Source: Coriobacteriales bacterium
GTDB taxonomy: Bacteria > Actinomycetota > Coriobacteriia > Coriobacteriales > UMGS124
NCBI GenBank assembly: GCA_017515595.1
Contig: JAFWFL010000005.1
Coordinates: 4,516-68,515 of the forward strand
DNA: 64,000 nucleotides
Direction: 5' to 3'
In this document: positions 2,281-64,000 of the stretch, in pieces
Layout of the letters: each line of letters begins with the position of its first letter
How positions within the stretch are numbered: position 1 is the stretch's first letter
Made by a program: the position numbers and the translations under genes
The notes under the pieces: model-generated
What the model was told of the DNA's origin: nothing
The model's input: the letters and a program-made list of their open reading frames with translations, nothing else
The model's database searches: none

Positions 2281-2407
2281 GGAATGCAAGTTTTGACGAG
2301 CGCTAGCATGATCAAAGCTTCAAGGATTTAAAATACCTGGGCTTTTGCCGAGAAACCCTTGAGAATTTGCTTATTGTCATGCTAGCACTCGTCAAAACTT
2401 GCATTCC
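2281..2407. mobile_element. MITE-like element, copy A (127 bp, 31-bp terminal inverted repeats)
   Basis: GGAATGCAAGTTTTGACGAGCGCTAGCATGA at 2281..2311 is the reverse complement, with 1 mismatch, of 2377..2407. The internal core TACCTGGGCTTTTGCCGAGAAACCC is shared, in inverted orientation, with the copy at 27368..27491. Confidence 0.7.
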
Positions 2408-6081: not shown

Positions 6082-6107
6082 ATACATTTTGAACCTTTTG
6101 GTTACTA

Positions 6108-6145
6108 AGCGGACGGGCGGTTTGTTGCTAAACCACCCGTCCGCT
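6108..6145. terminator. Bidirectional hairpin between convergent genes
   Basis: AGCGGACGGGCGG, a 12-nt loop, then CCACCCGTCCGCT followed by TT. It lies between the stop of 5875..6081 (+) and the stop of the LuxR gene (-). Confidence 0.6.
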
Positions 6146-6169
6146 TTATGTCTCGCAGTAACCGCGATG

Positions 6170-7825: not shown

Positions 7826-8267
7826 TCGTCCCTCCAAAAAGGTATGTATGAACATCAATTATAAGCGAACCGTCAGCTTCTGACAGGCATATCGGTCATA
7901 TATTTGAATATTATATGAAGCAAAATGACTGTTTATGACATCTCTTTTCTCACGTATATCAGAAGAATGCATGATTTTGTAATTCTGCTGTTTACCTTTG
8001 TCTTTATGATCATAATCATAGATATTTATGATGCGTTTCCTGCAGTTTTACCATTCACTTCACACACGTATAAGACCGGCTTTTGTCTCAAATCAGGAAT
8101 ACAGGCGATGTGGCAAAGAGTCGTTTTGCCCATTATTCGTCTCAGCTTGCAACAAACAAACGGTTTACCGCATTCACGGACAGAGAGAATCCCGAGAGGT
8201 AAACACAAAAACGTTTGCAGAAGGTACAGCTGAGAGAATATATAAGATTCAACAGAAGGGAGAGGGA

Positions 8268-11348: not shown

Positions 11349-11351
11349 GCC

Positions 11352-12020: not shown

Positions 12021-12035
12021 GCTGAGGAGTAACAC

Positions 12036-12920
12036 ATGACTCTATCCTGGCCTCTTATTGCGTACGTAATGTTAGGCGTAGCATGTGCCGGTACCCTGGG
12101 AACACAGGGAGTCCTGGCTCTGAGAGGTCGCGGTGGTAAGGTCCACTTGTACTCAGCTATTCTAGCGCTGGTACTTTGCCTGGGGGCGATGGCTGCCGCC
12201 GTCGCCCGACTGGGCAGAGTGGACCGTGTCTTTAATGTTTTAGCCCACTTGTCCAGTGGCATTTCGCAAGGTTATGCGGTACTTATTGTTTTTGCGGCTG
12301 CAGCTGTGGTTGCCATTGTTGCCATACATCGCGACGAGGACAACTCAATGCCCCGTTGGTGCGGTGTCATGTGTGTAATTGTGGCCCTGCTTACGGCATA
12401 CGGCATCGCAGCAAACCTTACCGCCACCGGCTTACATGCAGGCAAGACACTGCTCGCGACCGCTTATCTTGTGGCTGCAGCATTAGCAGCAGGCTTCTTT
12501 GTGATGAGCATCATGTTTACGCTTTGCCATGACGAATCCTGCCCGGCCCCGCTTTTGGCGCTTGGCTCAACTATTGCATCTGCCGCAACCGGTATTCTTG
12601 CATACATTTTTGCAACCATTGCTCCTACATTGGGAATCCGCGCCACCCAGATTGTCAAGTCTGACTACGGAATGGTTGGGATTCATCCTACACAAGGTAT
12701 CAATGCATCAGTACAAAATGATCAACTGGTGTTATGGGTTCTTGCTTTGGTGGTGGGAGCACTGGTACCGCTTGTAATAAGCCTGATTGCCCGCAAGATT
12801 AAAGGTGCAGGCTCAGCCGGCATCAATGCCCTTGGCGTAATTGCAGTTCTTGTTGCTGTTGCCGCAACGGTAAGTATTGCACTTTTCTCCGGTCAGGCAG
12901 TACAGCTGCTCAGCAGATAA
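12036..12920 (+). CDS. Integral membrane anchor subunit (DmsC/NrfD-like)
   Basis: 294 aa with about 8 hydrophobic helices. It is third in the operon, after the catalytic and FeS subunits. Confidence 0.65.
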   Translation: MTLSWPLIAYVMLGVACAGTLGTQGVLALRGRGGKVHLYSAILALVLCLGAMAAAVARLGRVDRVFNVLAHLSSGISQGYAVLIVFAAAAVVAIVAIHRDEDNSMPRWCGVMCVIVALLTAYGIAANLTATGLHAGKTLLATAYLVAAALAAGFFVMSIMFTLCHDESCPAPLLALGSTIASAATGILAYIFATIAPTLGIRATQIVKSDYGMVGIHPTQGINASVQNDQLVLWVLALVVGALVPLVISLIARKIKGAGSAGINALGVIAVLVAVAATVSIALFSGQAVQLLSR

Positions 12921-13207
12921 GTTCTTTTGCAACACTCTTGGTAAGGCATTTGACTTACCCCTTGTTTTACCCGGTTTATTTGTTCTGATTTGTCCGTACC
13001 TGCACGGATACACCCCCCATGGTATCCGTGCAGGTGGCGAAAGTCCCTGAAGAGAGACGGGCTCCCTCTCTCTTTTGCAATAGGCTTCTCTCTTCTTCCT
13101 CCTTCCAGCCTATATGCTACTCCCCGTCTTTCTCCAGAGACTTTCGCCACGGTTGGTGTTTGCCCCCATAAATACCAGCCGCTCCCGTGTGCCCAAAGGA
13201 GTTCCCT

Positions 13208-16087: not shown

Positions 16088-16172
16088 ATATGCGAAAGCC
16101 TTGACAGGAGGGGTGACCCGGCAAATTGGGCACATGGGGAGGGTTACTCCTCCTATCAGGGCTTTCGCATAT
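16088..16172 (+). promoter_or_regulatory. Long imperfect hairpin (about 32-bp arms) 20 nt upstream of the next start codon
   Basis: ATATGCGAAAGCCTTGACAGGAGGGGTGACCC pairs with GGGTTACTCCTCCTATCAGGGCTTTCGCATAT. No T-tract follows. Confidence 0.5.
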
Positions 16173-20204: not shown

Positions 20205-20402
20205 GCCGAGAAGAACTCGCAGGTCAGAAGCGCGGCACTTCTCGGCCTTACGAGCAAAAGGGTGCAAACAGACAACTCAAATGCATTTGAGTTGTCACGA
20301 AAGGGAGATTTCTGTGCAGGGAGACAAGAAAAAGGGACAGTTCTAGGTAAGTGCACAGGGGACAGTTCTATGTGCACTTACCTAGAACTGTCCCCTGTGC
20401 AC
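20205..20402. repeat. Palindrome-dense intergenic region between convergent genes
   Basis: Three structures are present. One is the hairpin GCCGAGAAG...CTTCTCGGC (20205..20246). The second is a perfect 26-bp palindrome, GACAACTCAAATGCATTTGAGTTGTC (20271..20296). The third is three copies (two direct, one inverted) of GGGACAGTTCTA (20334..20402). Confidence 0.75.
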
Positions 20403-20410
20403 TGTCTTCT

Positions 20411-27367: not shown

Positions 27368-27491
27368 GAATGCAAGTTATGACGGGTACTAGCATGAGAT
27401 AAATCAATATTTGAAGGCTTTCTCCGCAAAAGCCCAGGAATTTGAAATATTGCGAATATTGATCATGCTAGTATCCGTCATAACTTGCATG
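27368..27491. mobile_element. MITE-like element, copy B (about 124 bp, 28-bp terminal inverted repeats)
   Basis: ATGCAAGTTATGACGGGTACTAGCATGA is matched by its reverse complement with 1 mismatch. The internal core is the reverse complement of the core of copy A (2281..2407). Confidence 0.7.
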
Positions 27492-27604
27492 GCGATCTTA
27501 AGAACAGTATCTTGAGCGTCTTTATTGACCGGGATAACATCTGGCTGGCAAAATAGCTATAATACGGTTAGGTGAATGGTAGTGGGGTAAAGGGGATTAG
27601 GTTT

Positions 27605-29236
27605 ATGGCTACTATGGGGTCAACAGAAGAGGTGTTATCTACTGCGCGTGTGCCTCATTTCTCCGGTGAGGAAGCTGTACCACCTGTTACCAAGCCGCCC
27701 GTCAATTGTTTGCTGGTAATTGTTGGAATGGCCTTTTTATGGCCGTGCCTCGGAACATTTGTTACCAGCCGTTTTAGACACATGCTCTCGCTTTCTGATG
27801 CTGCTTTGAATTTCTCGGTTGTGGGAATTGTTTTTGGATGCCTTTGCCTGAGTGTTGTTGCAGTGTGCCTTTTGTTTCGCAAGCGTCTCGAACCACTGTT
27901 TGCACACGGAAGCACTGTGGTTCTGGCAGTGGGTATTCTTGGACTGGCCGGACACGCACTTATTATTTGGTCCCAAGTCTTACAGATATTGGTTACACCA
28001 CTAGTAGTCCTGGGACTTGCACTGAGCGCGTTATTCGTAGTAGTTCACACCTATGCCTGGGGTTCTTCGGCATACGATTTTACACCCGGGCAGGTAATAA
28101 CGATTTACGCGGCATCGTGTGCGTTAAGCTTTGGCCTGCAGCTTTTTATCTGGCTGCTTCCGGGAGAGCTGACCGTGTACTTTTTGCTTATTTGTCCACT
28201 CGGGTCAGGTATATGCTGGCATCTTGCCTATGGAAGAGTTTTTAGGCAGGATTTAAAAGATCATCCCTCTCTGAGAATATCATTTCGTCAATTACCTTGG
28301 AAATTCATTGTTCCTGCTTTGCTATTGATTTACTTTGAGCTTGTTTTCTCGAACCTCTTGTTTTTACGCTATGAAAACTGGCCAAATGCTCATGTTTGGA
28401 TTTCGCTTGCAATCTGCTGTCTATTCTGGCTCATTTGTGCCGTAGTGGTCTCCAAGATGCATGACCGAGCAAACATCCCCACGTTGATCCCTATCCTCGT
28501 ATGGATTCTTGCTGCGCTCCTGGTTTTGTTTATGGCAGCACTTCTGTTAACCGTGCTGTTCCCCGCGGGAACCTCGCTCATTACAGAGCGAATCCTGGTG
28601 GGCACTGGCAGTTGCCTGCGCTTTTATATATTTATTGCCATTGCGTGTGCCATATCAGAACGTCGGGCGTCTGTTTTGGCCGGTTTTAGCTTTTTTACCG
28701 TTTTGGTGGTATGCATCCCGGTTATGCGTTTGGTAACCATCGCGGTTTCACATGTTGAAGATCAAACTCTTATCGCTTCCCTTACCGCACCTCAAGTAGT
28801 AGTACCCATAGCAGGAATTATGCTATTTGCCATAGCTGTAGGACTTGTACTTGCAAGCCTTCGGGAAGCACAAAACCTCGCAAAATCAAACGCACTCCAA
28901 GCAGAACAAGCCATTCAAGCTGCACAAGCCGAGAAGGACCAGGCGCTGCTCGAAAGAGAACAGCTGTTAAGTGAGATAGAAAGGGCCGCTCAAACTACTG
29001 ATGCTGCCGGCGGGCAAGACACCTCAAAGCTTCAGGAAATAGCAGCAACCATGGGCCTCTCCGCACGAGAGGGCGAGGTATTGGATCTGATTGTTCACGG
29101 ATACAGCGCAAAACGTATAGCCCAAAAACTCTTTGTGAGCGAATCAACTGTCGTGACCCACACAACCCATATATATCGCAAGTTTGGTGTTTCTTCCAAA
29201 CAAGAACTTCTTGAGAAAATCGAGAGTACACGCTAA
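27605..29236 (+). CDS. Polytopic-membrane LuxR-family transcriptional regulator
   Basis: The C-terminal HTH is LSAREGEVLDLIVHGYSAKRIAQKLFVSESTVVTHTTHIYRKFGV, preceded by a coiled Q/A/E-rich linker and at least 10 hydrophobic segments. The ATG at 27605 is preferred over the GTG at 27572. Confidence 0.8.
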   Translation: MATMGSTEEVLSTARVPHFSGEEAVPPVTKPPVNCLLVIVGMAFLWPCLGTFVTSRFRHMLSLSDAALNFSVVGIVFGCLCLSVVAVCLLFRKRLEPLFAHGSTVVLAVGILGLAGHALIIWSQVLQILVTPLVVLGLALSALFVVVHTYAWGSSAYDFTPGQVITIYAASCALSFGLQLFIWLLPGELTVYFLLICPLGSGICWHLAYGRVFRQDLKDHPSLRISFRQLPWKFIVPALLLIYFELVFSNLLFLRYENWPNAHVWISLAICCLFWLICAVVVSKMHDRANIPTLIPILVWILAALLVLFMAALLLTVLFPAGTSLITERILVGTGSCLRFYIFIAIACAISERRASVLAGFSFFTVLVVCIPVMRLVTIAVSHVEDQTLIASLTAPQVVVPIAGIMLFAIAVGLVLASLREAQNLAKSNALQAEQAIQAAQAEKDQALLEREQLLSEIERAAQTTDAAGGQDTSKLQEIAATMGLSAREGEVLDLIVHGYSAKRIAQKLFVSESTVVTHTTHIYRKFGVSSKQELLEKIESTR

Positions 29237-29260: not shown

Positions 29261-29625
29261 CAATGTCATTAAGTTAACAAGTAAAGATTGCAGATGTCCC
29301 AAAGTAAAGGATCAGGACTCTTTTAGAGGTGCGAATGTCCTAAAGTAAAGGATCAGGACTCTCCGAATGTCCCAAAGTATGGGATCAGGACGCTTGGATA
29401 CCGAGAAGCCCATGTGTACTTTTCTATAATACCAGGTAGAAAGCTTATCATATAAACGCGGGTTTCTCGGTGTGAAAAAGATAGAGTCCTGATCCTTTAC
29501 TTTGGGACATTCGCACCTCTAAAAGAGTCCTGATCCTTTACTTTGGGACATTCGCACCTCTAAAAGAGTCCTGATCCTTTACTTTGGGACATCTGCAATC
29601 TTTACTTGTTAACTTAATGACATTG
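29261..29625. repeat. 365-bp composite palindrome with three tandem units of about 41 nt per arm around a conserved core
   Basis: The right arm carries GAGTCCTGATCCTTTACTTTGGGACATTCGCACCTCTAAAA at 29484 and 29525, plus a partial copy at 29566. The left arm carries the reverse complements. The outer 40 nt (29261..29300 and 29586..29625) are also inverted repeats. Confidence 0.85.
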
Positions 29626-29866
29626 CCTCCATCCCCTTTGGCATACTCTAACTGGCATAATTATAATATCATAAGTTTCTTAGGATACCCAAAAGACAAA
29701 TTTGCGGGTTTCTTAGGATTACAAAAACATACCTCTCACCAATACTTGCCACCAACAGGTTGCGCATACGAGCAACCGCAGTGATGGCTATGCAAGTTGG
29801 CCATAAAGAAACGTCCGACACAATGCGCGCCATTCAGTATCGCGCATACACATGGAGAGGTGAAAC

Positions 29867-31843
29867 ATGGAACTGAATCGTAGGGATTTTCTTAAGAAGT
29901 TTGCTGCAGGCAGTGCCACAGCTATAGCTGCGGGTTCTTTGAGTACAGCTGCTTTTGCAGAAGAAGCCCAGGTAGGTGCTGCAAATATTGAACAATTAGG
30001 CGAAGGCACAGATCCTATAGTAACCGAGTTTGCTTTCCCCGGTGATACCGCTGCTCCTGACCAAACCGAGTATGAAGCAGACGTTGTTGTGGTGGGTTGC
30101 GGATGGGCAGGACTTCATGCAGCCGTTACTGCCGCTCGTGCCGGGCAAAACGTCATTGTAGTTGACAAAGGCCGCCCCGGATACTCGGGCATGGCACCCT
30201 TCTCGCAGGGATGCACCTACTTCGATGCAGAACTCGGCGATAATATGGATGCAAACCTCAAAGTGCTTCAGTACACCGGTGAGTATTTATGCAACATCGA
30301 GGGGTTCCGTCACACCCTTGAAAACTCTAAACAGGCATATGAAGAAAATTTTGAATTTGGTCTGACCGGCGGTTATATGTACGCTCCGGCCTCAGGGATT
30401 ACCGAATTTTCGCAGGACAAAGAGTATTTCCAGGCAAATCTTGCAAATGAACGCCATCATAAGTGGATGCAGGTTTTGAGTGCCGAAGGCGTTACCGTTC
30501 TGCCCCACACCATGGCGGTCAATGTCCTTGTTGCAGATGATGGTCGTGCTTGCGGTATTGTCGCACTTCACGTTAAGAGCGGAACCGCTGTAACGGTAGC
30601 GGCTAAGGCAGTTATTTTGTGCGCCGGCAGCGGCTCATATAAACCGGGCGGTTTTGTTGTAGGCGGAGACACATTTGACGGTGCCTGTATGGCCTATGAT
30701 CTTGGTCTTACCATAGTAGGCATGGAGTTTGACGATTTCCATCAAACTAACTCGTTCGCTCCGGGTGATTACTACTTTAGCAATACCTGGGATTATGTTG
30801 AGCCGTATACGCCATATGACACCTATAACACCGCTCCTGTCAGCGATGACGAAGTCGCCCAGTATGCGGCAGGTAAACACAGCTTTATGTCGGCTAATCG
30901 TGTAAAGCAGGGACTCTACGGTCTTGCGGCAAATGATGGATCAGGAGTCTCAAACCGTACCACCAACGGCTCCGCAAACCCCGATGATCCTCGTTGTGCA
31001 TATTGTCTCTCCTGGGGTGACCAGGGCAAAAACCGTACAGCCGATTCCTATGGTGCATGTCCCGGTATGCCGCTCCACATGGCCTCGGGCGTGTATTGCG
31101 GTTGGGATGAGCGCAATGGTGCAACACCCATCACCGGCCTTTACGTAGCCGGTGACGGTGAGTTTGGCGATATGGCCGAGGGAGTTGTGTACGGTTTTGT
31201 GGGTTCGACATCAACCAACTGCTCGGTTCAGGGCGACCTCGCAGGTGCGGCGGCTGCGGCTTATGCAGACAGTGTCGAGCTCGCAGAACTTCCCGAGGAT
31301 CAGGTAGTCGCTGCTACTGATGCTATATTTGCACCTCGTACAATTACTAAGGGCTGGGATCCCAATTACGTAGTAGACCGCTTGTGCGCTATTATGACCC
31401 CGCCCGAAGTTCAACTCACCAAGAACGCCGTTAACCTTTATGCCGCGCTAACTCAGGTAGAGTATCTCCGCGACAAAGTATGTCCCAAGATGATGGGTTA
31501 TAGCGGTCATGACCTGCGCATCTGTATAGAAGCACAGCACAAGGTCACCTCAGCAGAAATGAAACTTCGCGCTGCTCTTGCCCGCGAAGAAAGCCGTGGC
31601 ACCCACTACCGCGAAGAGTTCCCCTACCGTGACGATGCCAATTTCCTGTGCCATATAGGCCTTTCAAAGAGTGATGATGGACATATGACGGTAAGCAGGA
31701 TAGAAATTCCCGAGGAGTGGAAAGGCGATCTTACCGCCGACTACGCTACACGTTATCCGGGACGTTTCCCCGGTGAGGAAGAAGCCCTTGGCCTTACAGC
31801 TGAGGCTGTAGAAGCCACAGGTTCATATGCACATAAGGACTAA
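29867..31843 (+). CDS. Tat-exported FAD-dependent reductase (FrdA/SdhA/AprA-like flavoprotein)
   Basis: The twin-arginine leader is MELNRRDFLKKFAAGSATAIAAG and the FAD motif is VVVVGCGWAGLHAA. The C-terminal EESRGTHYREEFP resembles the succinate dehydrogenase/fumarate reductase flavoprotein signature. Confidence 0.8.
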   Translation: MELNRRDFLKKFAAGSATAIAAGSLSTAAFAEEAQVGAANIEQLGEGTDPIVTEFAFPGDTAAPDQTEYEADVVVVGCGWAGLHAAVTAARAGQNVIVVDKGRPGYSGMAPFSQGCTYFDAELGDNMDANLKVLQYTGEYLCNIEGFRHTLENSKQAYEENFEFGLTGGYMYAPASGITEFSQDKEYFQANLANERHHKWMQVLSAEGVTVLPHTMAVNVLVADDGRACGIVALHVKSGTAVTVAAKAVILCAGSGSYKPGGFVVGGDTFDGACMAYDLGLTIVGMEFDDFHQTNSFAPGDYYFSNTWDYVEPYTPYDTYNTAPVSDDEVAQYAAGKHSFMSANRVKQGLYGLAANDGSGVSNRTTNGSANPDDPRCAYCLSWGDQGKNRTADSYGACPGMPLHMASGVYCGWDERNGATPITGLYVAGDGEFGDMAEGVVYGFVGSTSTNCSVQGDLAGAAAAAYADSVELAELPEDQVVAATDAIFAPRTITKGWDPNYVVDRLCAIMTPPEVQLTKNAVNLYAALTQVEYLRDKVCPKMMGYSGHDLRICIEAQHKVTSAEMKLRAALAREESRGTHYREEFPYRDDANFLCHIGLSKSDDGHMTVSRIEIPEEWKGDLTADYATRYPGRFPGEEEALGLTAEAVEATGSYAHKD

Positions 31844-32263: not shown

Positions 32264-32298
32264 GCCGAGAAACCCACGCGGGTTTCTCGGCAAGTTTT
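32264..32298 (+). terminator. Rho-independent terminator (REP-like stem)
   Basis: GCCGAGAAACCC, loop ACGC, GGGTTTCTCGGC, followed by AAGTTTTT. Confidence 0.8.
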
Positions 32299-35884: not shown

Positions 35885-36068
35885 ACCATCCACCCTCCCT
35901 TGAGTGATTGACGCTTTTAATAGAGTACCACAATAAGACCAAACAGTCGCAGGAGATATCCAGTTAGTCACAATGGCTTGAATTGCCCGCCGGTACCTGT
36001 CAATCTACGGATGCGAGGCAAGAAACAGCAATGCTTTTAACCAAACATCCCAAGAAAGGGGACCAATT

Positions 36069-37805
36069 ATGAGCAAGAGTTTTGACCGCCGTTCATTCAT
36101 TACCGGAAGTGCAACCATGGCTGCAGCCGCAGCTCTCGGAACTTCTGCCATGGCGTTCGCCGCCGAGGAGAACTCTCTGGCAGCGTTTGTTGCACCCGAG
36201 ACGGCAACCGTCCGAGCCGGATATCTTTCATATTTTGACTGGCTGGGCGAGGCACCCGTTATTGATGAGTCGCTTATTGTTGACGAACAGGCAGTTGACG
36301 TTGTAATTGTCGGCGCCGGTGCTTCTGGTATGTGCGCAGCACTTTCTGCTGCCGAGAATGGCGCAAGCGTTGCTGTTATTGAGAAGCAGCCCGAAGACAT
36401 GTATATGTTCATAGGCCATGACATTGGTACACTGAACTCGGAATATGTTCTCTCCAAGGGCGGGCAGGCAATTGATACCGCAGAGTTTATTCAGGACTGG
36501 CAGCGCCGCAACGGAGACCGCACCAACTCTGCTCTTACCCGCATCTTTGCCGAGAATTCCGGTAAGGCTCTTGACTGGATTCTTTCTCACCTGTCCGACG
36601 AAATCATTGAGAACTGCGGTGTATTTGCGGTACCGTATCCCACTGAATATCCGGGTGCGATCTCGGGCTTCAAGGCATGGTGCTGCGCGCTTCACTTCCA
36701 GGACGACGGCACCGACTGGCCGGATGCCGCAAAAACGCTCATGGCAGCCGCCAAAGAACTTGGCGCAACATGGGACTTTGACACAGAAGCCGTTGTGCTC
36801 GAGAAGGACGGCGAGCGTGTAAGCGGCGTTATTGCTCAGCTTCCCGACGGTACCTACAAGCGCTATACCGCTGCTAAAGCCGTTATTCTTGCTGCCGGCG
36901 ATTACGGTGGAAACCCGCTTATGACCTTTGCTCTGAACGACGAGTACCGCAACTTTGTTGAGGTTCGCCGCCAGGATTGGTCAGAGATTCGTTCTATGAG
37001 CGGCCGCACCGGTGACGGACAAAAGATGGGCTGCTGGGCCGGTGCCGTTATGGAGCCGGGTCCCCGCGCTTCTATGGGTCGTGCCATGGGTGCCGGATGC
37101 TTTGGCGACCTCGCTATGATTCAGATGAACGCCAAAGGCAAGCGCTTTATGAACGAAGGCATCTTTGGTGTTTGGGGCAATTACTTCCAGCAAATGCGTC
37201 AGCCTATTGGCCGAATCTATGCAGTTATTGACAGCAAGTGGCGTGAATTCGTGCAGAAAAACGCTCCCGAGCATGTATATCCCGGTACCGGTGGCTGGCA
37301 TGACGGCGGCTTCCTGACAACACTCGACGAAGAGCTCCCCAAGGTTCTCGAAGCCGGCGCAGAAGGTTACAAGATTCGCGGTTGCGCAACCTATGCAGCC
37401 AATACGCTCGAAGAACTTGCCGATTACCTCGAGCTTGAGGGTGAGGTCCGCGACAACTTCTTTGCGAGCATCGAGCGTTACAACGAGCTTGCTGCCGCAG
37501 GCAAAGACACCGACTTTGGTAAGGACGCCTTCCTCATGGAGCCCATTAGCGAGCCGCCGTTCTATTGCTCAACTCTGAGCAACGAGAAGTTCAGCCTTGG
37601 TCTCGTAGAGCTCTCCGGTCTCGTAGTTGACGAGAACCAAAACTGCCTTACCGCCATGGGCGATCCCATCCCCGGCCTTTATACCGTAGGTAACAACTGC
37701 GGCGGACGTTTTGCCCTCCAGTATCACACCCCCATTGCCGGTATCTCCATGGGCTGGGCCACCACCATGGGCTACATGCTTGGCAAGACTGTAGCAGCCC
37801 TGTAA
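36069..37805 (+). CDS. Tat-exported FAD-dependent oxidoreductase (flavocytochrome/fumarate-reductase-like flavoprotein)
   Basis: The twin-arginine leader is MSKSFDRRSFITGSATMAAAAALG and the FAD motif is VDVVIVGAGASGMCAA. It is a paralog of 2498..4201. Confidence 0.8.
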   Translation: MSKSFDRRSFITGSATMAAAAALGTSAMAFAAEENSLAAFVAPETATVRAGYLSYFDWLGEAPVIDESLIVDEQAVDVVIVGAGASGMCAALSAAENGASVAVIEKQPEDMYMFIGHDIGTLNSEYVLSKGGQAIDTAEFIQDWQRRNGDRTNSALTRIFAENSGKALDWILSHLSDEIIENCGVFAVPYPTEYPGAISGFKAWCCALHFQDDGTDWPDAAKTLMAAAKELGATWDFDTEAVVLEKDGERVSGVIAQLPDGTYKRYTAAKAVILAAGDYGGNPLMTFALNDEYRNFVEVRRQDWSEIRSMSGRTGDGQKMGCWAGAVMEPGPRASMGRAMGAGCFGDLAMIQMNAKGKRFMNEGIFGVWGNYFQQMRQPIGRIYAVIDSKWREFVQKNAPEHVYPGTGGWHDGGFLTTLDEELPKVLEAGAEGYKIRGCATYAANTLEELADYLELEGEVRDNFFASIERYNELAAAGKDTDFGKDAFLMEPISEPPFYCSTLSNEKFSLGLVELSGLVVDENQNCLTAMGDPIPGLYTVGNNCGGRFALQYHTPIAGISMGWATTMGYMLGKTVAAL

Positions 37806-37826: not shown

Positions 37827-37874
37827 AATCAGCTTGCCGAGAAGCCCCCGGGTTTCTCGGCAAGCTGATTTTAG
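37827..37874 (+). terminator. Rho-independent terminator (REP-like stem)
   Basis: AATCAGCTTGCCGAGAAGCCC pairs with GGGTTTCTCGGCAAGCTGATT and is followed by TT. Confidence 0.8.
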
Positions 37875-39090: not shown

Positions 39091-39153
39091 TAACCCAGGG
39101 GACAGTTCTATGTGTTCCCTAAGCAAGAACACATAGAACTGTCCCCTGGGTTA
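39091..39153. repeat. Perfect 27-bp-arm palindrome in a divergent promoter region
   Basis: TAACCCAGGGGACAGTTCTATGTGTTC, loop CCTAAGCAA, GAACACATAGAACTGTCCCCTGGGTTA. It shares AGGGGACAGTTCTATGTG with 20357..20374. Confidence 0.85.
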
Positions 39154-39252
39154 CTTCAAGTTTTTCTTACTTATATAGTAATTTACAAGATGCGCTTCAC
39201 CATAAATAAGCATAATATGCTTATGTGTAAGTTTAGCAAAAAAGGAGTGCAC

Positions 39253-41901
39253 ATGGCAGAACTAAAGCGGACCCCCCTGTATGAGGCACATGTAGCTGCA
39301 GGGGCTACCATGGTTGACTTTGGCGGATGGGAAATGCCGGTTCAGTACCCAACAGGTATTGTGGCTGAGCATCTTTTTACCCGCAGCAGTTGCTCGCTGT
39401 TTGACGTCTCTCATATGGGGCGTTTCTTTGTAGAAGGCCCCGAGCGGGTCGCGTTTTTGCAGCATGTGCTTACGAGCAATGTTGAGGCGCTCGAGCTGGG
39501 TATGGCTCAGTACGGCATTATTTCTGATGCTCAGGGCTTTGCCATTGATGACGCCTATCTCTACCGTTTTGAAGAAGAGAAGCTCCTGCTCGTGGTCAAC
39601 GCTGCCAATACCCAGAAGGACTGGGATCACCTTTTGCCCATTTCTAAGCAGTTTGACTGCACGCTCACCAATGTTTCTGACGAATACGCCGCTATTGCGG
39701 TTCAGGGTCCGCTCAGCCGTGAACTCCTGACCGAGCTCGCAGGCGGAGTACAGCTCACCGAGCCCATGAAGAATGCTGTCGCTCTTGTTGAGCTTGAAGG
39801 CCATCCAACAGGCATTGCAAAAACCGGCTACACCGGAGAGCCGCTTGGATACGAGGTCTACATCGCAGCTAAAGACGTAGTCTGGCTGTGGAACCGCCTC
39901 ATAGAGATGGGCGCCAAACCGGCCGGCCTTGGCGCGCGTGACACGTTGCGTCTCGAGGCATGCCTGCCGCTCTATGGCCATGAGCTGGGCAATGACCCAA
40001 GCGGCGCACCTATCCCCATTTGCGCCATGCCGCTTTCGCGCTTTGCGGTAAGCCTTGCTCCGCAAAAGGGCGATTTCATTGGCCGAGAACCCCTCACCGC
40101 TCAGCGCGAAGCTTATAAGAAGCTTATGGACCGGGACTTCTCGGCACTTGACGTACTTCCCCGTTGCATTAAGCCCATTGCCCTCATTGACCGCGGCGTT
40201 ATTCGCGCGGGCATGGAGGTATACCGTGGCGACGAGTGCATTGGCTGGGTCACAAGCGGCACCATGGTTCCGTATTATAAGAGCTCCGGAGAAGGTCTTG
40301 AGACCGTCATCAGCAGCGATGATGCAAAGCGCTCCATTGGTTTTGCTTACATCGCAAGCGACGTGCTCGAAGATGACTTTGTTGAGGTAGACGTACGTGG
40401 CAAGCGACTCAAGGCCGTTATTGTGCCGTGCCACCTGCGCTCCGACGCTCCGCCTTATGCCCGTCCCATTATTTACGGCACCGAGCTTGCACCTCGTGCA
40501 TCCTTACATGAAACCCGTCTTGCAAATGCGATTGAGCTCATGGGCCGCGCCTGCGAAAACCACGTTTGGCGTCAGCAGCAATGCGTTAACCTTATTCCGT
40601 CCGAGAATACCCCGAGCCCTGCCGTACGTGCACTTTGCGCCGCAGACCCAAGCGGCCGTTATGCCGAGCACCGCAAGGCCAAGGCCTTCTATGACAAAGA
40701 CGTATTCTATTACCAGGGCACAGATTTTATTAACGAGGTAGAACAGCTCCTCGTTGACGAGATGCGCACCTACTTTGGCTGCACCGAGGTCGAAACCCGT
40801 GTTATCAGCGGCCAGATGTCAAACATGGCGGTCTTCTCGTCATTGCTTGACTGGAAAAACAGAGTTGACCGCAAGTCAGCTCCCCGCAGGCTGGGATACG
40901 TGCTCAACAACCATATTATTAAGGGCGGCCACCTCTCGGCACAGCCCATGGGAGCTTTGCGCGACTTTATTGCAACCGACCCCGCCACCGAGCGCCCGGC
41001 TGTTGTGAACTTCCCGGTTTGCGCAGATAACGAGTATAAAATTGACGTCGAGGCAACCAAACAAATCATTGAGCGCTACCGCCCCGAGCTCATCATCTTT
41101 GGCAAGAGCATGGTGCTCCACAAAGAGCCGGTCGCAGCTATTCGCGCGTTTGTTGACGAGGCTGGGATCCCTACCACCATCATGTATGACATGGCCCACG
41201 TCCTCGGCATTTTGGGACCGTCTTTCCAGAACCCCTTTGAGGAAGGCGCCGAGATTGTTACCGGTTCAACCCACAAGACTTTCTTTGGCCCGCAGCGCGG
41301 TGTTATCGCAACCAACTGGAAAGAAGAAGACCTCAAGTACGGCCTTTGGGAAACCATCGAGACCCGCACCTTCCCGGGCAGCGTCTCTAACCACCACCTG
41401 GGCACCCAGCTTGGCCTTCTCATGGCTGCGTACGAGATGAACGCATTCCGCAAAGAGTACCAAAGCGCCGTATGCGCAAATGCCCGCTCTTTCGCGCGTG
41501 CCTGCAAAGATGCCGGTCTTGACGTCGCAGGCGACGAGTCTATAGGCTTTACCGAGACACACCAGGTCATTGTGCGCGTTGGCTACGGCGCCGGCGCTGA
41601 AGTAGCACGCCGCCTTGAGAACAACAATATTATTGTGAACTACCAGGCAACCCCTGATGAAGAAGGCTTTACTGCCTCAGGCGCTTTGCGCATGGGCGTC
41701 TCTGAAATGACACGCTTTGGATTTGGCAAGGCAGAGTTTGAACGCCTCGCCGAGCTTATGGCTGCCTGCATTCTGGAGAACAAGAACGTTGCGGCCGAGG
41801 TATCTGAGCTGAGATCAGGATACACGCAAATGCACTATTGCTTTGAAGGCGCTGAGTTTGATGCCGCACTTAAGAAGCTCTTGCAAACCATTGGTTTATA
41901 A
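39253..41901 (+). CDS. gcvT: Fusion protein: glycine-cleavage T protein (aminomethyltransferase) plus a serine hydroxymethyltransferase-like domain
   Basis: AAAGGAG precedes the ATG at 39253. The N-terminal half has RTPLYEAHVAAGATMVDFGGWEMPVQY (GcvT). The C-terminal half has VNLIPSENTPSPAV and GSTHKTFFGPQRG, an SHMT PLP-lysine motif. The ORF is uninterrupted at 882 aa. Confidence 0.8.
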   Translation: MAELKRTPLYEAHVAAGATMVDFGGWEMPVQYPTGIVAEHLFTRSSCSLFDVSHMGRFFVEGPERVAFLQHVLTSNVEALELGMAQYGIISDAQGFAIDDAYLYRFEEEKLLLVVNAANTQKDWDHLLPISKQFDCTLTNVSDEYAAIAVQGPLSRELLTELAGGVQLTEPMKNAVALVELEGHPTGIAKTGYTGEPLGYEVYIAAKDVVWLWNRLIEMGAKPAGLGARDTLRLEACLPLYGHELGNDPSGAPIPICAMPLSRFAVSLAPQKGDFIGREPLTAQREAYKKLMDRDFSALDVLPRCIKPIALIDRGVIRAGMEVYRGDECIGWVTSGTMVPYYKSSGEGLETVISSDDAKRSIGFAYIASDVLEDDFVEVDVRGKRLKAVIVPCHLRSDAPPYARPIIYGTELAPRASLHETRLANAIELMGRACENHVWRQQQCVNLIPSENTPSPAVRALCAADPSGRYAEHRKAKAFYDKDVFYYQGTDFINEVEQLLVDEMRTYFGCTEVETRVISGQMSNMAVFSSLLDWKNRVDRKSAPRRLGYVLNNHIIKGGHLSAQPMGALRDFIATDPATERPAVVNFPVCADNEYKIDVEATKQIIERYRPELIIFGKSMVLHKEPVAAIRAFVDEAGIPTTIMYDMAHVLGILGPSFQNPFEEGAEIVTGSTHKTFFGPQRGVIATNWKEEDLKYGLWETIETRTFPGSVSNHHLGTQLGLLMAAYEMNAFRKEYQSAVCANARSFARACKDAGLDVAGDESIGFTETHQVIVRVGYGAGAEVARRLENNNIIVNYQATPDEEGFTASGALRMGVSEMTRFGFGKAEFERLAELMAACILENKNVAAEVSELRSGYTQMHYCFEGAEFDAALKKLLQTIGL

Positions 41902-43639: not shown

Positions 43640-45063
43640 TGGAGCTTATTTTTGAGAAAAGCGTTGCCGGCCGTGCATGCGACATACTCGGCGCCTGCGA
43701 TTGCGACTATGTTGACCTCCCTCAGGATGTTTTGCGCGCACAGCCGCCCAAACTCCCCGAGCTTGCCGAGGTAGACGTAACGAGACATTATACCGAGCTC
43801 TGCCACCATGTGCATGGTGTTAACTGCGGGTTTTATCCGTTAGGCTCCTGCACCATGAAGTATAACCCTCGTATAGATGAGGAAATCGCAGCATTACCGG
43901 GATTCCAGCGCATACACCCGCTGGCTCCCCAGCACGCTGTCACAGGCTGCCGGGAAGTTCTTGACCTGGCACGCAGCTACCTCTGCAAAATCTCCGGCAT
44001 GGACAATATGACCTTCCAGCCTGCAGCCGGCGCACACGGTGAGTTTACCGGCGTTCTGCTCATTAAACAATATCACGACAGCCGCGGCGATACCGCGCGC
44101 ACCAAGATTATTGTCCCTGACTCCGCCCACGGCACCAACCCCGCAACCGCAGCTATGTGCGGTTACGAGGTAGTAAATATACCCTCCGCACCGGACGGAT
44201 GTGTTGATCTTGACGCGTTGGCAAACGCATTGGGCGATGATACAGCTGGTCTCATGCTTACGAACCCCAACACGGTAGGCTTGTTTGACCAGAACATTTT
44301 AAAGATCACCGCTATGGTTCATGAAGCAGGCGGCCTTTGCTATTATGACGGCGCCAACCTTAACGCCGTTATGGGTGTAGTACGCCCCGGTGACATGGGC
44401 TTTGACTGCATCCACATGAACCTCCACAAAACCTTTGCCACTCCTCACGGCGGAGGCGGACCGGGAGCATGCGCCGTTGGGTGCAAAGAGTTCCTGAGCG
44501 AATTCCTGCCTAAGTCAGCCCTTATGGACGAGGCCGGACATCTGCAGGTACGGAGCTTTGCCGGCAACTTCCTTGTTGTTGTTAGAGCGCTCACCTACCT
44601 TATGTCAATGGGACGCGAAGGCATTCCCGAGGCAGCACATAATGCCGTGCTCAATGCCAACTATCTCATGCGCCGCATCCAGGGCACTTTTGAGCCTGCA
44701 TTTGACCGCATTTGCATGCATGAGTTTGTGCTCGACCTCTCTGAGTTTAAGAAAGAAACCGGAGTCTCCGCACTCGATGTTGCGAAGTCGCTTATTGACT
44801 ACGGCATGCATCCACCAACAATGTACTTCCCCATGATTGTGCACGAAGCGCTTATGCTCGAACCAACCGAGACCGAGAGCAAAGAGACACTCGACTGGGC
44901 AGCCGGCGTATTTGCCGAGCTTTACGAGCTTGGTAAAACCAATCCTGCCGTCATGCATGAAGCGCCTCATCATGCGCAGATTGGCCGCCCTGATGAAGTT
45001 CGTGCTTCCCGTACCCCTGTGTTAAGATGGTATCCGCAAGAAGAAGGTTCAGCAGCACTATGA
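43639..45063 (+). CDS. gcvPB: Glycine dehydrogenase (aminomethyl-transferring) subunit 2
   Basis: NLHKTFATPHGGGGPG is the PLP-lysine region of GcvPB. The start overlaps the gcvPA stop. Confidence 0.9.
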   Translation: MELIFEKSVAGRACDILGACDCDYVDLPQDVLRAQPPKLPELAEVDVTRHYTELCHHVHGVNCGFYPLGSCTMKYNPRIDEEIAALPGFQRIHPLAPQHAVTGCREVLDLARSYLCKISGMDNMTFQPAAGAHGEFTGVLLIKQYHDSRGDTARTKIIVPDSAHGTNPATAAMCGYEVVNIPSAPDGCVDLDALANALGDDTAGLMLTNPNTVGLFDQNILKITAMVHEAGGLCYYDGANLNAVMGVVRPGDMGFDCIHMNLHKTFATPHGGGGPGACAVGCKEFLSEFLPKSALMDEAGHLQVRSFAGNFLVVVRALTYLMSMGREGIPEAAHNAVLNANYLMRRIQGTFEPAFDRICMHEFVLDLSEFKKETGVSALDVAKSLIDYGMHPPTMYFPMIVHEALMLEPTETESKETLDWAAGVFAELYELGKTNPAVMHEAPHHAQIGRPDEVRASRTPVLRWYPQEEGSAAL

Positions 45064-49788: not shown

Positions 49789-49826
49789 CAAGGGCTTCTC
49801 GGCATATTGATGCCGAGAAGCCCTTG
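49789..49826. terminator. Bidirectional terminator (REP-like stem)
   Basis: CAAGGGCTTCTCGGCAT, loop ATTG, ATGCCGAGAAGCCCTTG, between convergent genes. Confidence 0.8.
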
Positions 49827-62137: not shown

Positions 62138-62194
62138 CCGGTTCCCGTCTCCAATGTCCAAATTCAACGCAATTCACAACCAACAGAACTCAAC

Positions 62195-62291
62195 CCATAG
62201 TAACCAAACAGCCCAGAATAATCAACAAGCCGCCAAGAAACCAACAATTGGGCTTCTCGGCAGCAGCAGCATTACCACCCGCAGCTCAATC
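62195..62291. repeat. ~95-bp direct repeat, copy 1 (upstream of the BceR-like operon)
   Basis: CCATAGTAACCAAACAGCCCAGAATAATCAACAAGCCGCCAAGAAACCAACAATTGGGCTTCTCGGCAGC... is closely similar, by eye, to 63395..63489. Confidence 0.8.
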
Positions 62292-62293
62292 TT

Positions 62294-62530
62294 GCTGCCA
62301 CAAACTCGATCGTTTGCACAACCCGCTGGCACAAACTCAAGTGTTTGCACATCCTAAAGGGATGAGCAGCAAGAGCTCCTCCAATCAGTAGTCTTTCTAC
62401 CTGGTCTTTTAATAAGCCGCGGAGAAACCCCGCTGATCACAACCCGCATTTCATTAAGAACGCATCAGCAGAGCGTGCAAACGCTCGAGTTTGAGCCAGC
62501 GGGTTGTGCAAACACTTGAGTTTGTGCCAG
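62294..62530. repeat. Composite palindrome with two tandem units of about 28 nt per arm around a core
   Basis: The left arm is CTGCCACAAACTCGATCGTTTGCACAACCCGCTGGCACAAACTCAAGTGTTTGCAC. The right arm is its near reverse complement (62475..62530). The core contains CTTTCTACCTGGT and GGAGAAACCCC. Confidence 0.75.
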
Positions 62531-63489: not shown

Positions 63490-63583
63490 TCTAGAAACAA
63501 GATAGATTGTGAAAATAGCACTTTATAAACTGATTCTTGATTCACAAAATATAGCGCCGGTCCCCATCTGAAAGAGAAACGCT

Positions 63584-63972
63584 GGATGAAATTGTCCTTT
63601 ACGAGAGGATGGGTGGATGAGATTGCCGTTTTCGAGAGGATGGGTGGACAGGATTGCCGTTTTCGGGAAGATTGATGGATGAGATTGCCGTTTTCGAGAG
63701 GCGCTCTGCCACAGATCCGGGTTTTCGAGAGGATTTTGAAGCGAAGGGTCTCTCGGCATTTTAAAGAATACCAGGTAAATACCTATGTATCAAAAATGCA
63801 AGATGCCGAGAAGCCCAAAAATCCTCTCGAAAAGGCAGATTTGTGGCAGAGCGCCTCTCGAAAACCCGGATCCTATCCACCAATCCTCTCGAAAACAGCA
63901 ATCTCATCCACCCATCCTCTCGAAAACCCGGATCTTATCCACCGACCCTCTCGAAAACAGCAATCTCATCCC
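63584..63972. repeat. ~390-bp composite palindrome with five to six tandem units of about 31 nt per arm (each ending TTTTCGAGAGG) around a core
   Basis: The left arm units lie at 63584..63756. The centre, GGTCTCTCGGCATT..AATACCAGGTAAATACCT..GATGCCGAGAAGCCC, has its symmetry point near 63779. The right arm carries CCTCTCGAAAA units to 63972. Confidence 0.8.
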
Positions 63973-64000
63973 ATCAGTGAAAAATCAATATAGTCATTTA

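What the first reader, a model, noticed from the sequence alone, without database searches (positions are those of the whole stretch)
29261..29625. 365-bp palindrome built from inverted tandem repeats, between a membrane LuxR regulator and its neighbouring reductase gene
Each arm holds three tandem copies of a unit of about 41 nt. The conserved part is GAGTCCTGATCCTTTACTTTGGGAC. The outermost 40 nt are also inverted repeats.

The centre (29395..29480) contains CCGAGAAGCCC ... ATACCAGGTAGAAAG ... CGCGGGTTTCTCGG. The same core words recur in the centres of the palindromes at 62294..62530 and 63584..63972. The words are TACCTGG/CCAGGTA plus GCCGAGAA(A/G)CCC. They also occur in the MITE-like elements at 2281 and 27368. 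The arm sequences of these elements are unrelated.

A shared core flanked by variable, internally repeated, mutually complementary arms does not match CRISPR, an integron attC site or a simple terminator. It could form a cruciform or RNA hairpin more than 150 bp long.

Possible roles are a non-autonomous mobile element family, a REP/BIME-like structural element or a structured RNA.
Basis: seen in the sequence. Interest (0 to 1): 0.65.

Follow-up and report, generated by a model that had tools for sequence, protein, structure and literature searches.

The report
Long palindrome on an uptake-sequence-like hairpin
The 365-bp palindrome is real, non-coding and probably a piece of self-expanding intergenic DNA, but its "core word" is a motif scattered about every 1.7 kb through this uncultured gut bacterium's genes, behaving like the DNA-uptake sequences known only from Neisseria and Haemophilus.

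Summary
Window 29261-29625 is a 365-bp inverted repeat. Its arms are 99% complementary over 102 nt, and each arm is a 41-nt tandem array. It lies between a LuxR-family gene and a Tat-signal flavoprotein reductase gene.

It appears in independent assemblies. The only large difference from one near-identical strain is one 41-nt unit. It has no ORF, no Rfam match, no target-site duplication, and no second copy of its arms in about 83 kb of this genome.

Mismatches in the arms of the older sister palindromes show no strand-specific G·U bias, which argues against a selected RNA hairpin.

The "shared core" has two parts:
- GCCGAGAARCCC is not specific to these elements. GCCGAGAA is the commonest 8-mer here (46 copies in 77.5 kb, 3-5 expected). 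About 70% of copies lie inside genes, at codon choices that codon usage does not explain. Inverted pairs form terminator-like hairpins at convergent gene ends. It is absent from an adjacent ICE fragment.
- The neighbouring TACCWGG segment is truly homologous between elements.

Best reading: a young member of a low-copy, species-specific family of palindromes nucleated on these hairpins. It grows by slippage and arm mirroring and acts at most as a terminator or insulator. A MITE-like origin remains a serious rival.

The parts
29261..29395 (.). Left arm of palindrome A. A diverged terminal unit (29261-29288), two good units (29289-29329, 30-62) and a degenerate inner unit (29362-29394).
29396..29482 (.). 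Non-palindromic centre of A. An inverted pair of the genome-wide 12-mer encloses a 48-nt AT-rich loop. Folds as a hairpin on its own (DNA -11.8 kcal/mol, z = -3.1).
29400..29411 (+). Copy of the over-represented word (ACCGAGAAGCCC, 1 mismatch to GCCGAGAARCCC).
29460..29471 (-). Inverted copy of the word (ACCGAGAAACCC on the minus strand).
29425..29443 (.). Element-specific core segment TATAATACCAGGTAGAAAG, including the 9-nt palindrome TACCAGGTA at 29430-29438. 17 of 19 nt identical to B (62393-62411, opposite strand). Similar segment in C (63759-63784).
29483..29625 (.). Right arm of A. Three 41-nt units (29483, 29524, 29565) and a diverged terminal unit. One unit fewer in ERZ28018703.
27605..29236 (+). 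Upstream gene: LuxR/GerE-family regulator (543 aa as called in public assemblies). Its stop codon lies 25 nt before the element.
29638..29667 (+). Promoter-like site TTGGCA-18-TATAAT (11 of 12), 13 nt beyond the right end of the element.
   Evidence: This is a consensus match only; the number of matches in the region does not exceed that in shuffles.
29675..29727 (+). Two direct repeats GTTTCTTAGGAT, 33 nt apart. Similar boxes lie upstream of the orthologous reductase in L118. Probable operator of the LuxR regulator; separate from the palindrome.
   Evidence: The function is inferred.
29867..31843 (+). Downstream gene: flavoprotein reductase with a Tat-type N-terminus (FAD_binding_2, Succ_DH_flav_C).
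62295..62530 (.). Palindrome B. Arms are two 31-nt units, 83-88% complementary. The core CTTTCTACCTGGTC...GCGGAGAAACCC is at 62393-62430.
63573..63982 (.). Palindrome C. Arms are 4-5 units of 31 nt (62-nt super-unit), about 80% complementary. The centre is an inverted word pair (63746, 63805) around a 47-nt loop with TACCAGGTA.
2281..2407 (.). Palindrome D (127 nt). 31-nt arms and a core TACCTGGGCTTTTGCCGAGAAACCC. Lies between convergent gene ends.
27368..27492 (.). Palindrome E. A copy of D in the opposite orientation, 77% identical over 123 nt.
62170..62313 (-). Module shared by B and C (the copy at 63370-63510 is 78% identical; the inner 97 nt about 90%). On the minus strand it contains a terminator-like hairpin made of the word and a degenerate partner.
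32264..32291 (.). Example of a plain inverted word pair forming a terminator-like hairpin between convergent genes. Others are at 20205-20246, 37836-37861 and 49792-49823.

Best explanation
Element A is a non-coding structure at the DNA level, not a gene for a protein or a dedicated RNA.

Its seed is the kind of hairpin this genome uses at gene ends: an inverted pair of the hyper-abundant word (A/T)TGCCGAGAARCCC. Here the pair carries a roughly 48-nt AT-rich loop cassette with TACCAGGTA, which is homologous to the centres of palindromes B and C.

Around that seed a short sequence was multiplied into a 41-nt tandem array by replication slippage. The array was then copied in mirror image onto the other side, by intramolecular template switching or by gene conversion between the arms. 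This gave a 135-nt near-perfect inverted repeat.

Afterwards each arm drifts on its own. Units are gained and lost, as in a VNTR, and point mutations accumulate. A (99%), B (about 85%) and C (about 80%) look like young, middle-aged and old stages of the same process.

In its place, 25 nt after the LuxR stop codon and just before the reductase promoter and operator region, the only plausible activity is passive. When transcribed with the LuxR mRNA it makes a very stable hairpin that would stop or pause read-through and protect the 3' end. It thus insulates the regulated reductase promoter.

Shown: the anatomy, the homology between cores, the unit-number difference between strains, the absence of coding and of strand-specific compensation, and the genome-wide nature of the word.

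Inferred: the order of events, template switching as the mirroring step, and the terminator or insulator effect.
For: - Anatomy and stability.
- The diverged terminal unit is as perfectly mirrored as the fresh units (alignment). So the array diversified before it was mirrored or last homogenised.
- Arms drift independently afterwards. The inner left unit has decayed. The right arm carries an extra perfect unit that the ERZ28018703 strain lacks. This is the only large indel in about 37 kb compared between the two assemblies, against about 19 single-base differences.
- In C the two arms hold the unit variants out of register.
- B and C arms carry 10 and 33 mismatches with no G·U bias for either strand (3/4/3 and 8/11/14). 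This is neutral decay.
- The centres are inverted pairs of the word, as in the plain hairpins at convergent gene ends.
- Cores are homologous between A, B and C while the arms are not.
- Nearest orthologous LuxR-reductase loci have spacers of 250 nt (L118) and roughly 165 nt (L121, read from the LuxR stop codon to the MELN start) without any palindrome. The window spacer is 631 nt, that is 365 plus 266.
- No ORF of note lies in the element.
- No Rfam family matches.
- No transposase, RAYT or invertase was found among the window ORFs scanned.
Against: - The complete genome was not available, so other copies of A's arms cannot be excluded.
- D and E show that whole palindromes, arms included, do get copied to distant loci. 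This is easier to explain by a mobile mechanism.
- The arms do not abut the central hairpin. Unpaired spacers of 5 nt and 12 nt separate them, whereas a simple snap-back duplication predicts continuous pairing.
- Three independent expansions within 64 kb, all with tandem arms at periods close to whole helical turns (41, 31 and 31 nt), could mean the arms are selected, for instance as protein-binding arrays.
- The central hairpin has no T-run, so its action as a terminator is not shown.
- The nearest relatives (69-72% protein identity) are too distant to prove an empty site.
Confidence: 0.4

Rival explanations
1. A is a non-autonomous mobile element: a foldback-like MITE whose long terminal inverted repeats are made of sub-repeats. 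It was recently inserted between the LuxR gene and the reductase promoter, and is moved by an enzyme encoded elsewhere in the genome.
For: - The arms are near-perfect, which fits a recent arrival.
- The element accounts exactly for the excess spacer length relative to the orthologous loci.
- D and E are dispersed copies, 77% identical with arms included.
- B and C are paralogues.
- The A, B and C cores are homologous although 33 kb apart.
- Short-read contigs break at A, C and D.
Against: - No target-site duplication at any of the five elements.
- A's arms have no second copy in about 83 kb of this genome. They also have none in JGI metagenomes, IMG/VR, plasmid or phage records, but the species itself seems absent from those collections.
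- The pattern is the reverse of a MITE family, where the ends are what the transposase recognises: here the arms differ between elements and the centres are conserved.
- No transposase, RAYT or recombinase among the window ORFs scanned.
- Contig breaks are also explained by the internal repeats.
Confidence: 0.27
2. A is an invertible DNA switch (inverton). Recombination between the arms flips the 87-161-nt centre and redirects a promoter or terminator towards or away from the reductase gene.
For: - Inverted repeats flank a short segment between a regulator gene and its target gene.
- The centre has a promoter-like site on the minus strand, TTCACA-18-TATGAT, 10 of 12.
- The B and C cores lie in opposite orientation relative to their shared 144-nt flank.
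Against: - The orientation is the same in every assembly seen: A in two, B and C in four.
- The promoter-like site is no better than shuffled sequence gives, and it is not conserved in B, C or D.
- No invertase gene in the window.
- Arms of 135 nt built of tandem units are unlike known recombinase sites.
Confidence: 0.08
3. The arm units are a helically phased array of binding sites for a DNA-binding protein. Candidates are the neighbouring LuxR regulator, a nucleoid protein or a partition-like protein. The array would give the element a regulatory or architectural role.
For: - Unit periods of 41, 31 and 31 nt are close to 4 and 3 helical turns.
- Each A unit contains a short internal dyad, GTCC...GGAC (my reading).
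- The element is located in a regulatory spacer.
Against: - The sequence conserved with the orthologous loci is a different pair of direct repeats, TTTCTTAGGAT, downstream of the element.
- The units of A, B and C are unrelated, so each would need its own protein.
- The arms of B and C decay freely.
- Unit number differs between near-identical strains.
Confidence: 0.07
4. A encodes a structured RNA, a long hairpin processed into a functional small RNA or acting in cis as a regulatory leader.
For: - Extreme predicted stability.
- The single arm mismatch within the 102-nt perfect part is a G·U pair on the plus strand.
Against: - No Rfam family reaches its gathering score. The only hits are sub-threshold matches to plant miRNA precursors, which reflect hairpin shape alone.
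- There is no strand bias in the mismatches of the older paralogues, and 14 of 33 mismatches in C are transversions that break pairing on both strands.
- Perfect palindromes give no strand information.
- No conserved promoter.
Confidence: 0.05

Closest known systems
DNA uptake sequences: Neisseria DUS (AT-GCCGTCTGAA) and Pasteurellaceae USS (AAGTGCGGT), and their inverted pairs in terminators
   Same: This comparison concerns the core word only.
- It is an 8-12-nt word about once per 1.7 kb, on both strands.
- Most copies lie inside genes, at codon choices that codon usage does not explain.
- The flanking consensus is weaker than the core.
- Inverted pairs form the hairpins at convergent gene ends.
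- It is absent from an adjacent ICE fragment.
The general properties of USS and DUS are as summarised in PMC1852404.
   Different: - The sequence is different.
- The host is an uncultured anaerobe whose GcvPA is closest to Oscillospiraceae MAGs, not a proteobacterium.
- Uptake specificity, competence genes and a receptor were not testable.
- Known DUS and USS hairpins are not reported to expand into 200-400-bp palindromes with tandem-repeat arms (my knowledge).
REP/BIME elements of enterobacteria and REPINs of Pseudomonas (PMC3116915)
   Same: - They are intergenic, palindromic and hairpin-forming.
- They combine into mosaics.
- They are thought to terminate transcription or stabilise mRNA.
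- They have no target-site duplication.
- D and E (2 x 31-nt arms plus a 65-nt spacer) resemble a REPIN in size.
   Different: - REPs are conserved 20-40-nt sequences in hundreds of strictly extragenic copies, with a cognate RAYT gene.
- Here the conserved word is mostly intragenic and the arms are element-specific tandem arrays.
- No RAYT was seen among the window ORFs scanned. A genome-wide check was not possible.
Bacterial MITEs, including the minisatellite-bearing 'BrickBuilt' MITE of Porphyromonas gingivalis (PMC4596501)
   Same: - Small non-coding elements with inverted ends.
- BrickBuilt carries an internal tandem repeat (from the title and start of the abstract listed; that its copy number varies between copies is my own recollection, the paper was not read here).
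   Different: - MITE families share their ends and usually show target-site duplications.
- BrickBuilt's repeats form one direct array, not two mirrored arrays.
- Here the ends differ between elements and there is no duplication.
Eukaryotic Foldback and Galileo transposons (PMC3573991, PMC4079207)
   Same: Long inverted arms that are internally made of tandem repeats, with variable unit number and diverged outer units.
   Different: - They are eukaryotic and transposase-associated.
- Copies of one family share arm sequence.
- No bacterial counterpart is established.
Invertible promoters (invertons) of gut bacteria
   Same: Inverted repeats bracket a short intergenic segment next to a regulated gene.
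   Different: - Known invertons have short inverted repeats of roughly 10-40 bp and a dedicated invertase.
- Both orientations coexist in a population.
- None of this was seen here.

Membership tests
MITE | Terminal inverted repeats | tested here: met
   Arms are 99% complementary over 102 nt, starting at 29261 and ending at 29625.
MITE | Target-site duplication flanking the element | tested here: not met
   The flanks read ...CTCAGGCC | element | CCTCCATC..., so at most a 2-bp CC is shared. B, C, D and E have none either.
MITE | Several copies with the same ends at unrelated loci | tested here: inconclusive
   A has no second copy in about 83 kb of this genome or in JGI metagenomes, IMG/VR, plasmids or phages. 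D and E are two copies. The whole genome was not available.
MITE | Cognate transposase in the genome | not testable with these tools
   None among the window ORFs scanned against Pfam. The rest of the genome is unseen.
REP / BIME / REPIN | Short conserved palindromic unit confined to extragenic space, in many copies | tested here: not met
   The conserved word is mostly intragenic: 32 of 45 copies lie in long open frames. The arms are unique to each element.
REP / BIME / REPIN | Associated RAYT (IS200/IS605-like TnpA) gene | not testable with these tools
   None in the window. The genome is incomplete.
DNA uptake sequence (applies to the core word only) | Short word at about 1 per kb, far above expectation, on both strands | tested here: met
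   GCCGAGAA occurs 46 times in 77.5 kb against 2.6-5.3 expected (Markov orders 1-3). It is the top 8-mer by count and by observed/expected ratio. The strand split is 27 plus and 18 minus.
DNA uptake sequence (applies to the core word only) | Present inside genes through a DNA-level bias, not explained by protein or codon usage | tested here: met
   17 of 22 Ala-Glu-Lys/Asn tripeptides are written GCC-GAG, against 16% expected from codon usage. The tripeptide itself is 2.3-fold over-represented.
DNA uptake sequence (applies to the core word only) | Inverted pairs form terminator hairpins at gene ends | tested here: met
   Pairs at 20205, 32264, 37836 and 49792, and at L122 4217, all lie between convergent genes. 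Their hairpins fold at -17 to -22 kcal/mol.
DNA uptake sequence (applies to the core word only) | Rare in recently acquired DNA | tested here: met
   There are 0 copies in the first 7.6 kb of L149, of which about 5.2 kb is the ICE fragment (tet(M)-like, MobA/MobL, TnpW). About 4-5 would be expected at the native density. This is a single case.
DNA uptake sequence (applies to the core word only) | The word confers preferential DNA uptake; the organism is competent and has a receptor | not testable with these tools
   The organism is uncultured and there are no competence genes in the sequence available.
Inverton | Both orientations of the segment present in populations | tested here: inconclusive
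   Only one orientation appears in the assemblies. Reads were not available.
Inverton | Invertase gene and a promoter inside the segment | tested here: not met
   No recombinase in the window. The promoter-like match in the centre is within the expectation from shuffles and is not conserved in B, C or D.
CRISPR array | Repeats separated by unique spacers | tested here: not met
   The 16 nt between unit cores are identical from unit to unit.
Any Rfam RNA family | Match at the family's gathering score | tested here: not met
   0 matches in the window at gathering thresholds. The only hits are sub-threshold matches to plant miRNA hairpins.

The most novel reading that the evidence does not exclude
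(A/T)TGCCGAGAARCCC is a DNA uptake (self-recognition) sequence of an uncultured gut or rumen anaerobe. A second organism, Olsenella-like by its PEPCK, shares it. It would be the first such signal outside the Proteobacteria. The long tandem-armed palindromes would then be a previously undescribed by-product: uptake-sequence terminator hairpins that seed outward palindrome growth, and whose loop cassettes spread between hairpins by recombination anchored on the word.
Probability: 0.25. Interest if true: 0.85.

Novelty: new variant of a known kind. Interest (0 to 1): 0.5.

Why it matters
The palindrome by itself is a modest curiosity. It is a bacterial intergenic element with foldback-like, tandem-repeat arms that change unit number between near-identical strains. 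It could serve as a strain marker. It is also a case study of how long palindromes arise and decay in bacteria.

The larger point is what its "core word" turned out to be. The motif has every sequence-level hallmark of a DNA uptake sequence, in an uncultured anaerobe far from Neisseriaceae and Pasteurellaceae. If it is one, it implies sequence-selective natural transformation in gut anaerobes. It would give a direct handle for finding the receptor and for measuring gene flow in these communities. It would also offer a simple marker that separates native from imported DNA in their genomes.

Tried and rejected
That scan was wasted, and the species' representative genome was never located.

2. 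The arm-unit pattern gave 0 hits in JGI metagenomes and in IMG/VR. This is uninformative about copy number, because the species itself seems absent from those collections.

3. The inverted word pair and the D/E core gave 0 hits in IMG/VR.

4. The inverted word pair in metagenomes gave 19 loci. Most are one conserved hairpin of unrelated organisms with no enrichment. Only L143 (and L137, the same hairpin) comes from an organism with the word enriched.

5. A against plasmid and phage records gave no match.

6. I looked for "dialects" of the word in Atopobiaceae. The frequent 8-mers in L012, L045, L151 and L152 have no flanking consensus and are codon-usage effects. Rejected.

7. Relatives of the window's GcvPA (L147, L148) and of the reductase (L118-L121) lack the word.

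8. A promoter in the centre as a shared feature is not conserved.

9. Small ORFs in A: nothing credible.

10. A recombination breakpoint at A: the SNPs between the two assemblies cluster elsewhere, at 35896-35951 and 36854-36950.

11. Taxonomy from a second marker failed.

12. Sigma-54, IHF, Spo0A-box and SexAI-site resemblances came only from memory and were not pursued.

13. A putative hsdM remnant was checked against NCBIfam and gave no hit.
Full report
THE OBSERVATION

Window 29261-29625 is a 365-bp inverted repeat.
- The outer 102 nt of the two arms are 99% complementary. With one 9-nt gap the pairing runs over 29261-29395 / 29483-29625, with 129 matches and 5 mismatches.
- The right arm is a perfect 41-nt tandem array (TRF: 2.7 copies, 100% match). 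The left arm mirrors it, but its innermost unit has lost 9 nt and carries 3 substitutions.
- The 87-nt centre contains ACCGAGAAGCCC, then 48 AT-rich nt with TACCAGGTA, then GGGTTTCTCGGT. It folds as a hairpin on its own.
- The whole element folds into one hairpin of -267 kcal/mol, z = -28.8.

The element is genuine.
- It is found in a 159-kb contig of ENA ERZ28018703, identical except for one 41-nt unit fewer in the right arm.
- A contig from ERZ28653837 ends inside its first unit.
- Over about 37 kb shared with the ERZ28018703 contigs there are about 19 single-base differences. That 41-nt unit is the only large indel. I could not exclude that an assembler collapsed one unit.

CONTEXT

The element starts 25 nt after the stop codon of a LuxR/GerE-family regulator gene (27605-29236). 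It ends 241 nt before a flavoprotein reductase gene with a Tat-type N-terminus (29867-31843), which is followed by a small ferredoxin gene.

Just beyond its right end lie a promoter-like site (29638-29667) and two direct repeats GTTTCTTAGGAT (29675 and 29708).

The nearest orthologous loci have reductases 69-71% identical (L118-L121). They keep the LuxR-reductase-ferredoxin order and similar TTTCTTAGGAT-like boxes. Their spacers are only 250 nt (L118) and roughly 165 nt (L121, read from the LuxR stop codon to the reductase start), with no palindrome. The window spacer is 631 nt, that is 365 plus 266. So the palindrome is extra DNA placed between the regulator's stop codon and a conserved regulatory region. 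It is not the regulator's operator.

None of the window ORFs scanned against Pfam is a transposase, RAYT or recombinase.

THE "SHARED CORE"

(a) The 12-mer is a genome-wide word.
- GCCGAGAARCCC has 28 matches with at most 1 mismatch in the window, against 0.65 expected.
- GCCGAGAA is the commonest 8-mer. I counted 45 copies in 73 kb, and 46 in a 77.5-kb stretch that adds 4.4 kb of native DNA from the left flank. Markov models of order 1-3 predict 2.6-5.3.
- Its extended consensus is (A/T)T-GCCGAGAA-(G/A)-c-C-C.
- 32 of 45 copies lie in long open frames. There is no strong strand skew (27 against 18).
- Inside genes, 17 of 27 copies sit in frame as Ala-Glu-Lys/Asn. 17 of the 22 such tripeptides are spelled GCC-GAG, where codon usage predicts 16%. 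So the bias acts on DNA, not on protein.
- Inverted pairs of the word form clean hairpins between convergent genes at 20205, 32264, 37836, 49792 and L122 4217.
- Left of the window there is a fragment of a conjugative element (tet(M)-like, MobA/MobL, TnpW). The first 7.6 kb of that locus contain no copy, and the density returns in native DNA.
- These are the sequence-level hallmarks of DNA uptake sequences, as summarised in PMC1852404. I found no paper describing this word.

Hosts of the word.
- The window's host is uncultured. Its GcvPA is 77-81% identical to proteins that NCBI labels Oscillospiraceae or Clostridia MAGs.
- The word, with the same flanks and hairpin pairs, is also enriched in one metagenomic 2-Mb contig, L143 (PDYJ01000765.1). 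Its PEPCK is 85% identical to that of an Olsenella isolate.
- Closer relatives of either organism lack the word.

(b) The segment next to the word is specific to the elements.
- Four of the window's twelve TACCTGG/CCAGGTA words lie in the centres of A, B, C and D.
- A and B share 17 of 19 nt.
- A and C each have a 47-48-nt AT-rich loop with AATACCAGGTA between an inverted word pair.
- So the centres are homologous, and the palindromes form a family.

THE FAMILY

- D (2281-2407) and E (27368-27492) are two copies of a 127-nt palindrome, arms included. They are 77% identical, 25 kb apart and in opposite orientation.
- B (62295-62530) and C (63573-63982) are paralogues. They share a 144-nt flank that contains a terminator-like word hairpin. 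B's right flank matches a C arm unit. Their cores lie in opposite orientation relative to the shared flank.
- B and C are 99.9% identical in four assemblies.
- A's arms match nothing else in about 83 kb of this genome or in any collection searched.
- None of the five elements has a target-site duplication.

WHAT THE ARMS SAY

Arm complementarity falls from A (99%) to B (83-88%) to C (about 80%). The mismatches show no excess of G·U-compatible changes on either strand: 2/0/3 in A, 3/4/3 in B and 8/11/14 in C, counted as plus-strand G·U, minus-strand G·U and other. In C the two arms carry the two unit variants out of register.

The arms therefore start as near-perfect mirror images and then decay neutrally and independently. 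This argues against selection for an RNA hairpin and against conserved protein sites.

In A the old, diverged terminal unit is mirrored as perfectly as the fresh units. So the tandem array existed before the mirroring, or before the last homogenisation.

Rfam gives nothing at gathering thresholds, and only sub-threshold plant miRNA hairpins otherwise. There is no credible ORF.

MOST LIKELY EXPLANATION (confidence about 0.4)

A is a DNA-level palindrome nucleated on a word-pair hairpin of the type this genome uses at gene ends.
- A flanking sequence was amplified by slippage into a 41-nt array.
- The array was mirrored by template switching or by conversion between the arms.
- Each arm now drifts as a VNTR.

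Where it sits, the only plausible effect is passive. It would give a very stable 3' hairpin on the LuxR transcript that blocks read-through into the regulated reductase promoter and protects the mRNA end. That effect is inferred, not shown, and the central hairpin has no T-run.

RIVALS

- Foldback-like MITE (about 0.27). This is favoured by the dispersed D/E pair, the homologous cores and the exact fit of 365 bp to the excess spacer. It is disfavoured by the absence of target-site duplications, by arms that differ while centres are conserved, and by the lack of any transposase in view.
- Invertible switch (about 0.08), protein-binding array (about 0.07) and structured RNA (about 0.05) have little support.

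COMPARISON WITH KNOWN SYSTEMS

The word behaves like DUS or USS. Every sequence-level criterion I could test is met. Uptake itself is untestable here.

The palindromes resemble REP/BIME/REPIN elements and MITEs in being intergenic hairpin repeats, and eukaryotic Foldback elements in having tandem-repeat arms. They fail the defining tests of each:
- extragenic-only conserved units,
- shared ends,
- target-site duplications,
- a cognate enzyme.

I file A as a new variant of the known kind "intergenic palindromic repeat".

VERDICT

Interest in the palindrome itself is moderate. The unplanned result is that its core word is an uptake-sequence-like motif in an uncultured non-proteobacterial anaerobe. 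That is the most valuable lead and should be followed on a complete genome.

Noticed in passing
whole window; examples at 7662, 9896, 32264/32284, 37836/37854, 49796/49812: GCCGAGAA, with extended consensus (A/T)TGCCGAGAARCCC, is the commonest 8-mer, at about 1 per 1.7 kb. About 70% of copies are inside genes, written against codon usage. Inverted pairs form terminator-like hairpins at convergent gene ends. It has the sequence-level signature of a DNA uptake sequence.
   Followed up: partly
L143 (PDYJ01000765.1) 2307-12211; L137: A second organism carries the same word with the same flanks and hairpin pairs: 8 copies in 12.7 kb. Its GC is 0.59, and its PEPCK is 85% identical to that of an Olsenella isolate. 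The Olsenella isolate type itself (L151, L152) and the relatives of the window's GcvPA (L147, L148) lack it.
   Followed up: partly
L149 1-5200 (immediately left of the window): Fragment of a conjugative element (tet(M)-like EF-G, DUF3847, MobA/MobL relaxase, Cys_rich_VLP, TnpW). It contains no copy of the word (0 copies in the first 7.6 kb of L149; the first is at 7615), consistent with recent import.
   Followed up: partly
window 20334-20403 and 39091-39153: A second family of hairpin repeats sharing CAGGGGACAGTTCTATGTG, at two intergenic sites. One lies directly upstream of the gcvT-like gene.
   Followed up: no
window 13034-13150 and 16088-16172: Two further intergenic inverted repeats (28-nt and 32-nt arms, 88-89% complementary) inside the molybdopterin oxidoreductase gene cluster. 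They are unrelated to the other families.
   Followed up: no
window 29675-29727; L118 about 5830-5895: Direct repeats TTTCTTAGGAT upstream of the reductase gene. Similar boxes occur at the orthologous locus of a species 71% identical. This is a candidate operator for this class of membrane LuxR regulators.
   Followed up: no
window 62229-62264 and 63432-63461 (minus strand): The module shared by B and C holds a terminator-like hairpin made of the word and a degenerate partner. On the same strand there is a 15-16-codon hydrophobic ORF (MLLLPRSPIVGFLAAC / MVLLRSPFVGFLAVC) whose two copies differ by an in-frame 3-nt indel. Its significance is unknown (and my own reading).
   Followed up: no
window about 63140-63340 (minus strand): A broken reading frame, MVTDELKIKIDSFWKSF*TGSITNPLDVIEQMTYLAR*, recalls from memory the N-terminus of type I restriction-modification methylases. 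An NCBIfam scan of the mended fragment gave no hit, so this is unverified.
   Followed up: partly
window 39112-41901 and 45027-47456: Two gene fusions in the glycine-cleavage cluster: GcvT fused to serine hydroxymethyltransferase (929 aa; also in relatives L147 and L148), and lipoate-protein ligase fused to dihydrolipoyl dehydrogenase (809 aa).
   Followed up: no
window 35896-35951 and 36854-36950: The few SNPs between the window and the ERZ28018703 contig cluster in two tracts of 55-100 nt (6 and 7 differences). Otherwise there are 0 differences over many kb. This looks like short recombination imports or local assembly noise.
   Followed up: no
window 51964-52141: An imperfect tandem repeat (periods 21, 33 and 66 nt) lies inside a gene for an EF-hand protein with Ala/Glu/Lys-rich repeats. 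It contributes two in-frame copies of GCCGAGAAGG.
   Followed up: no
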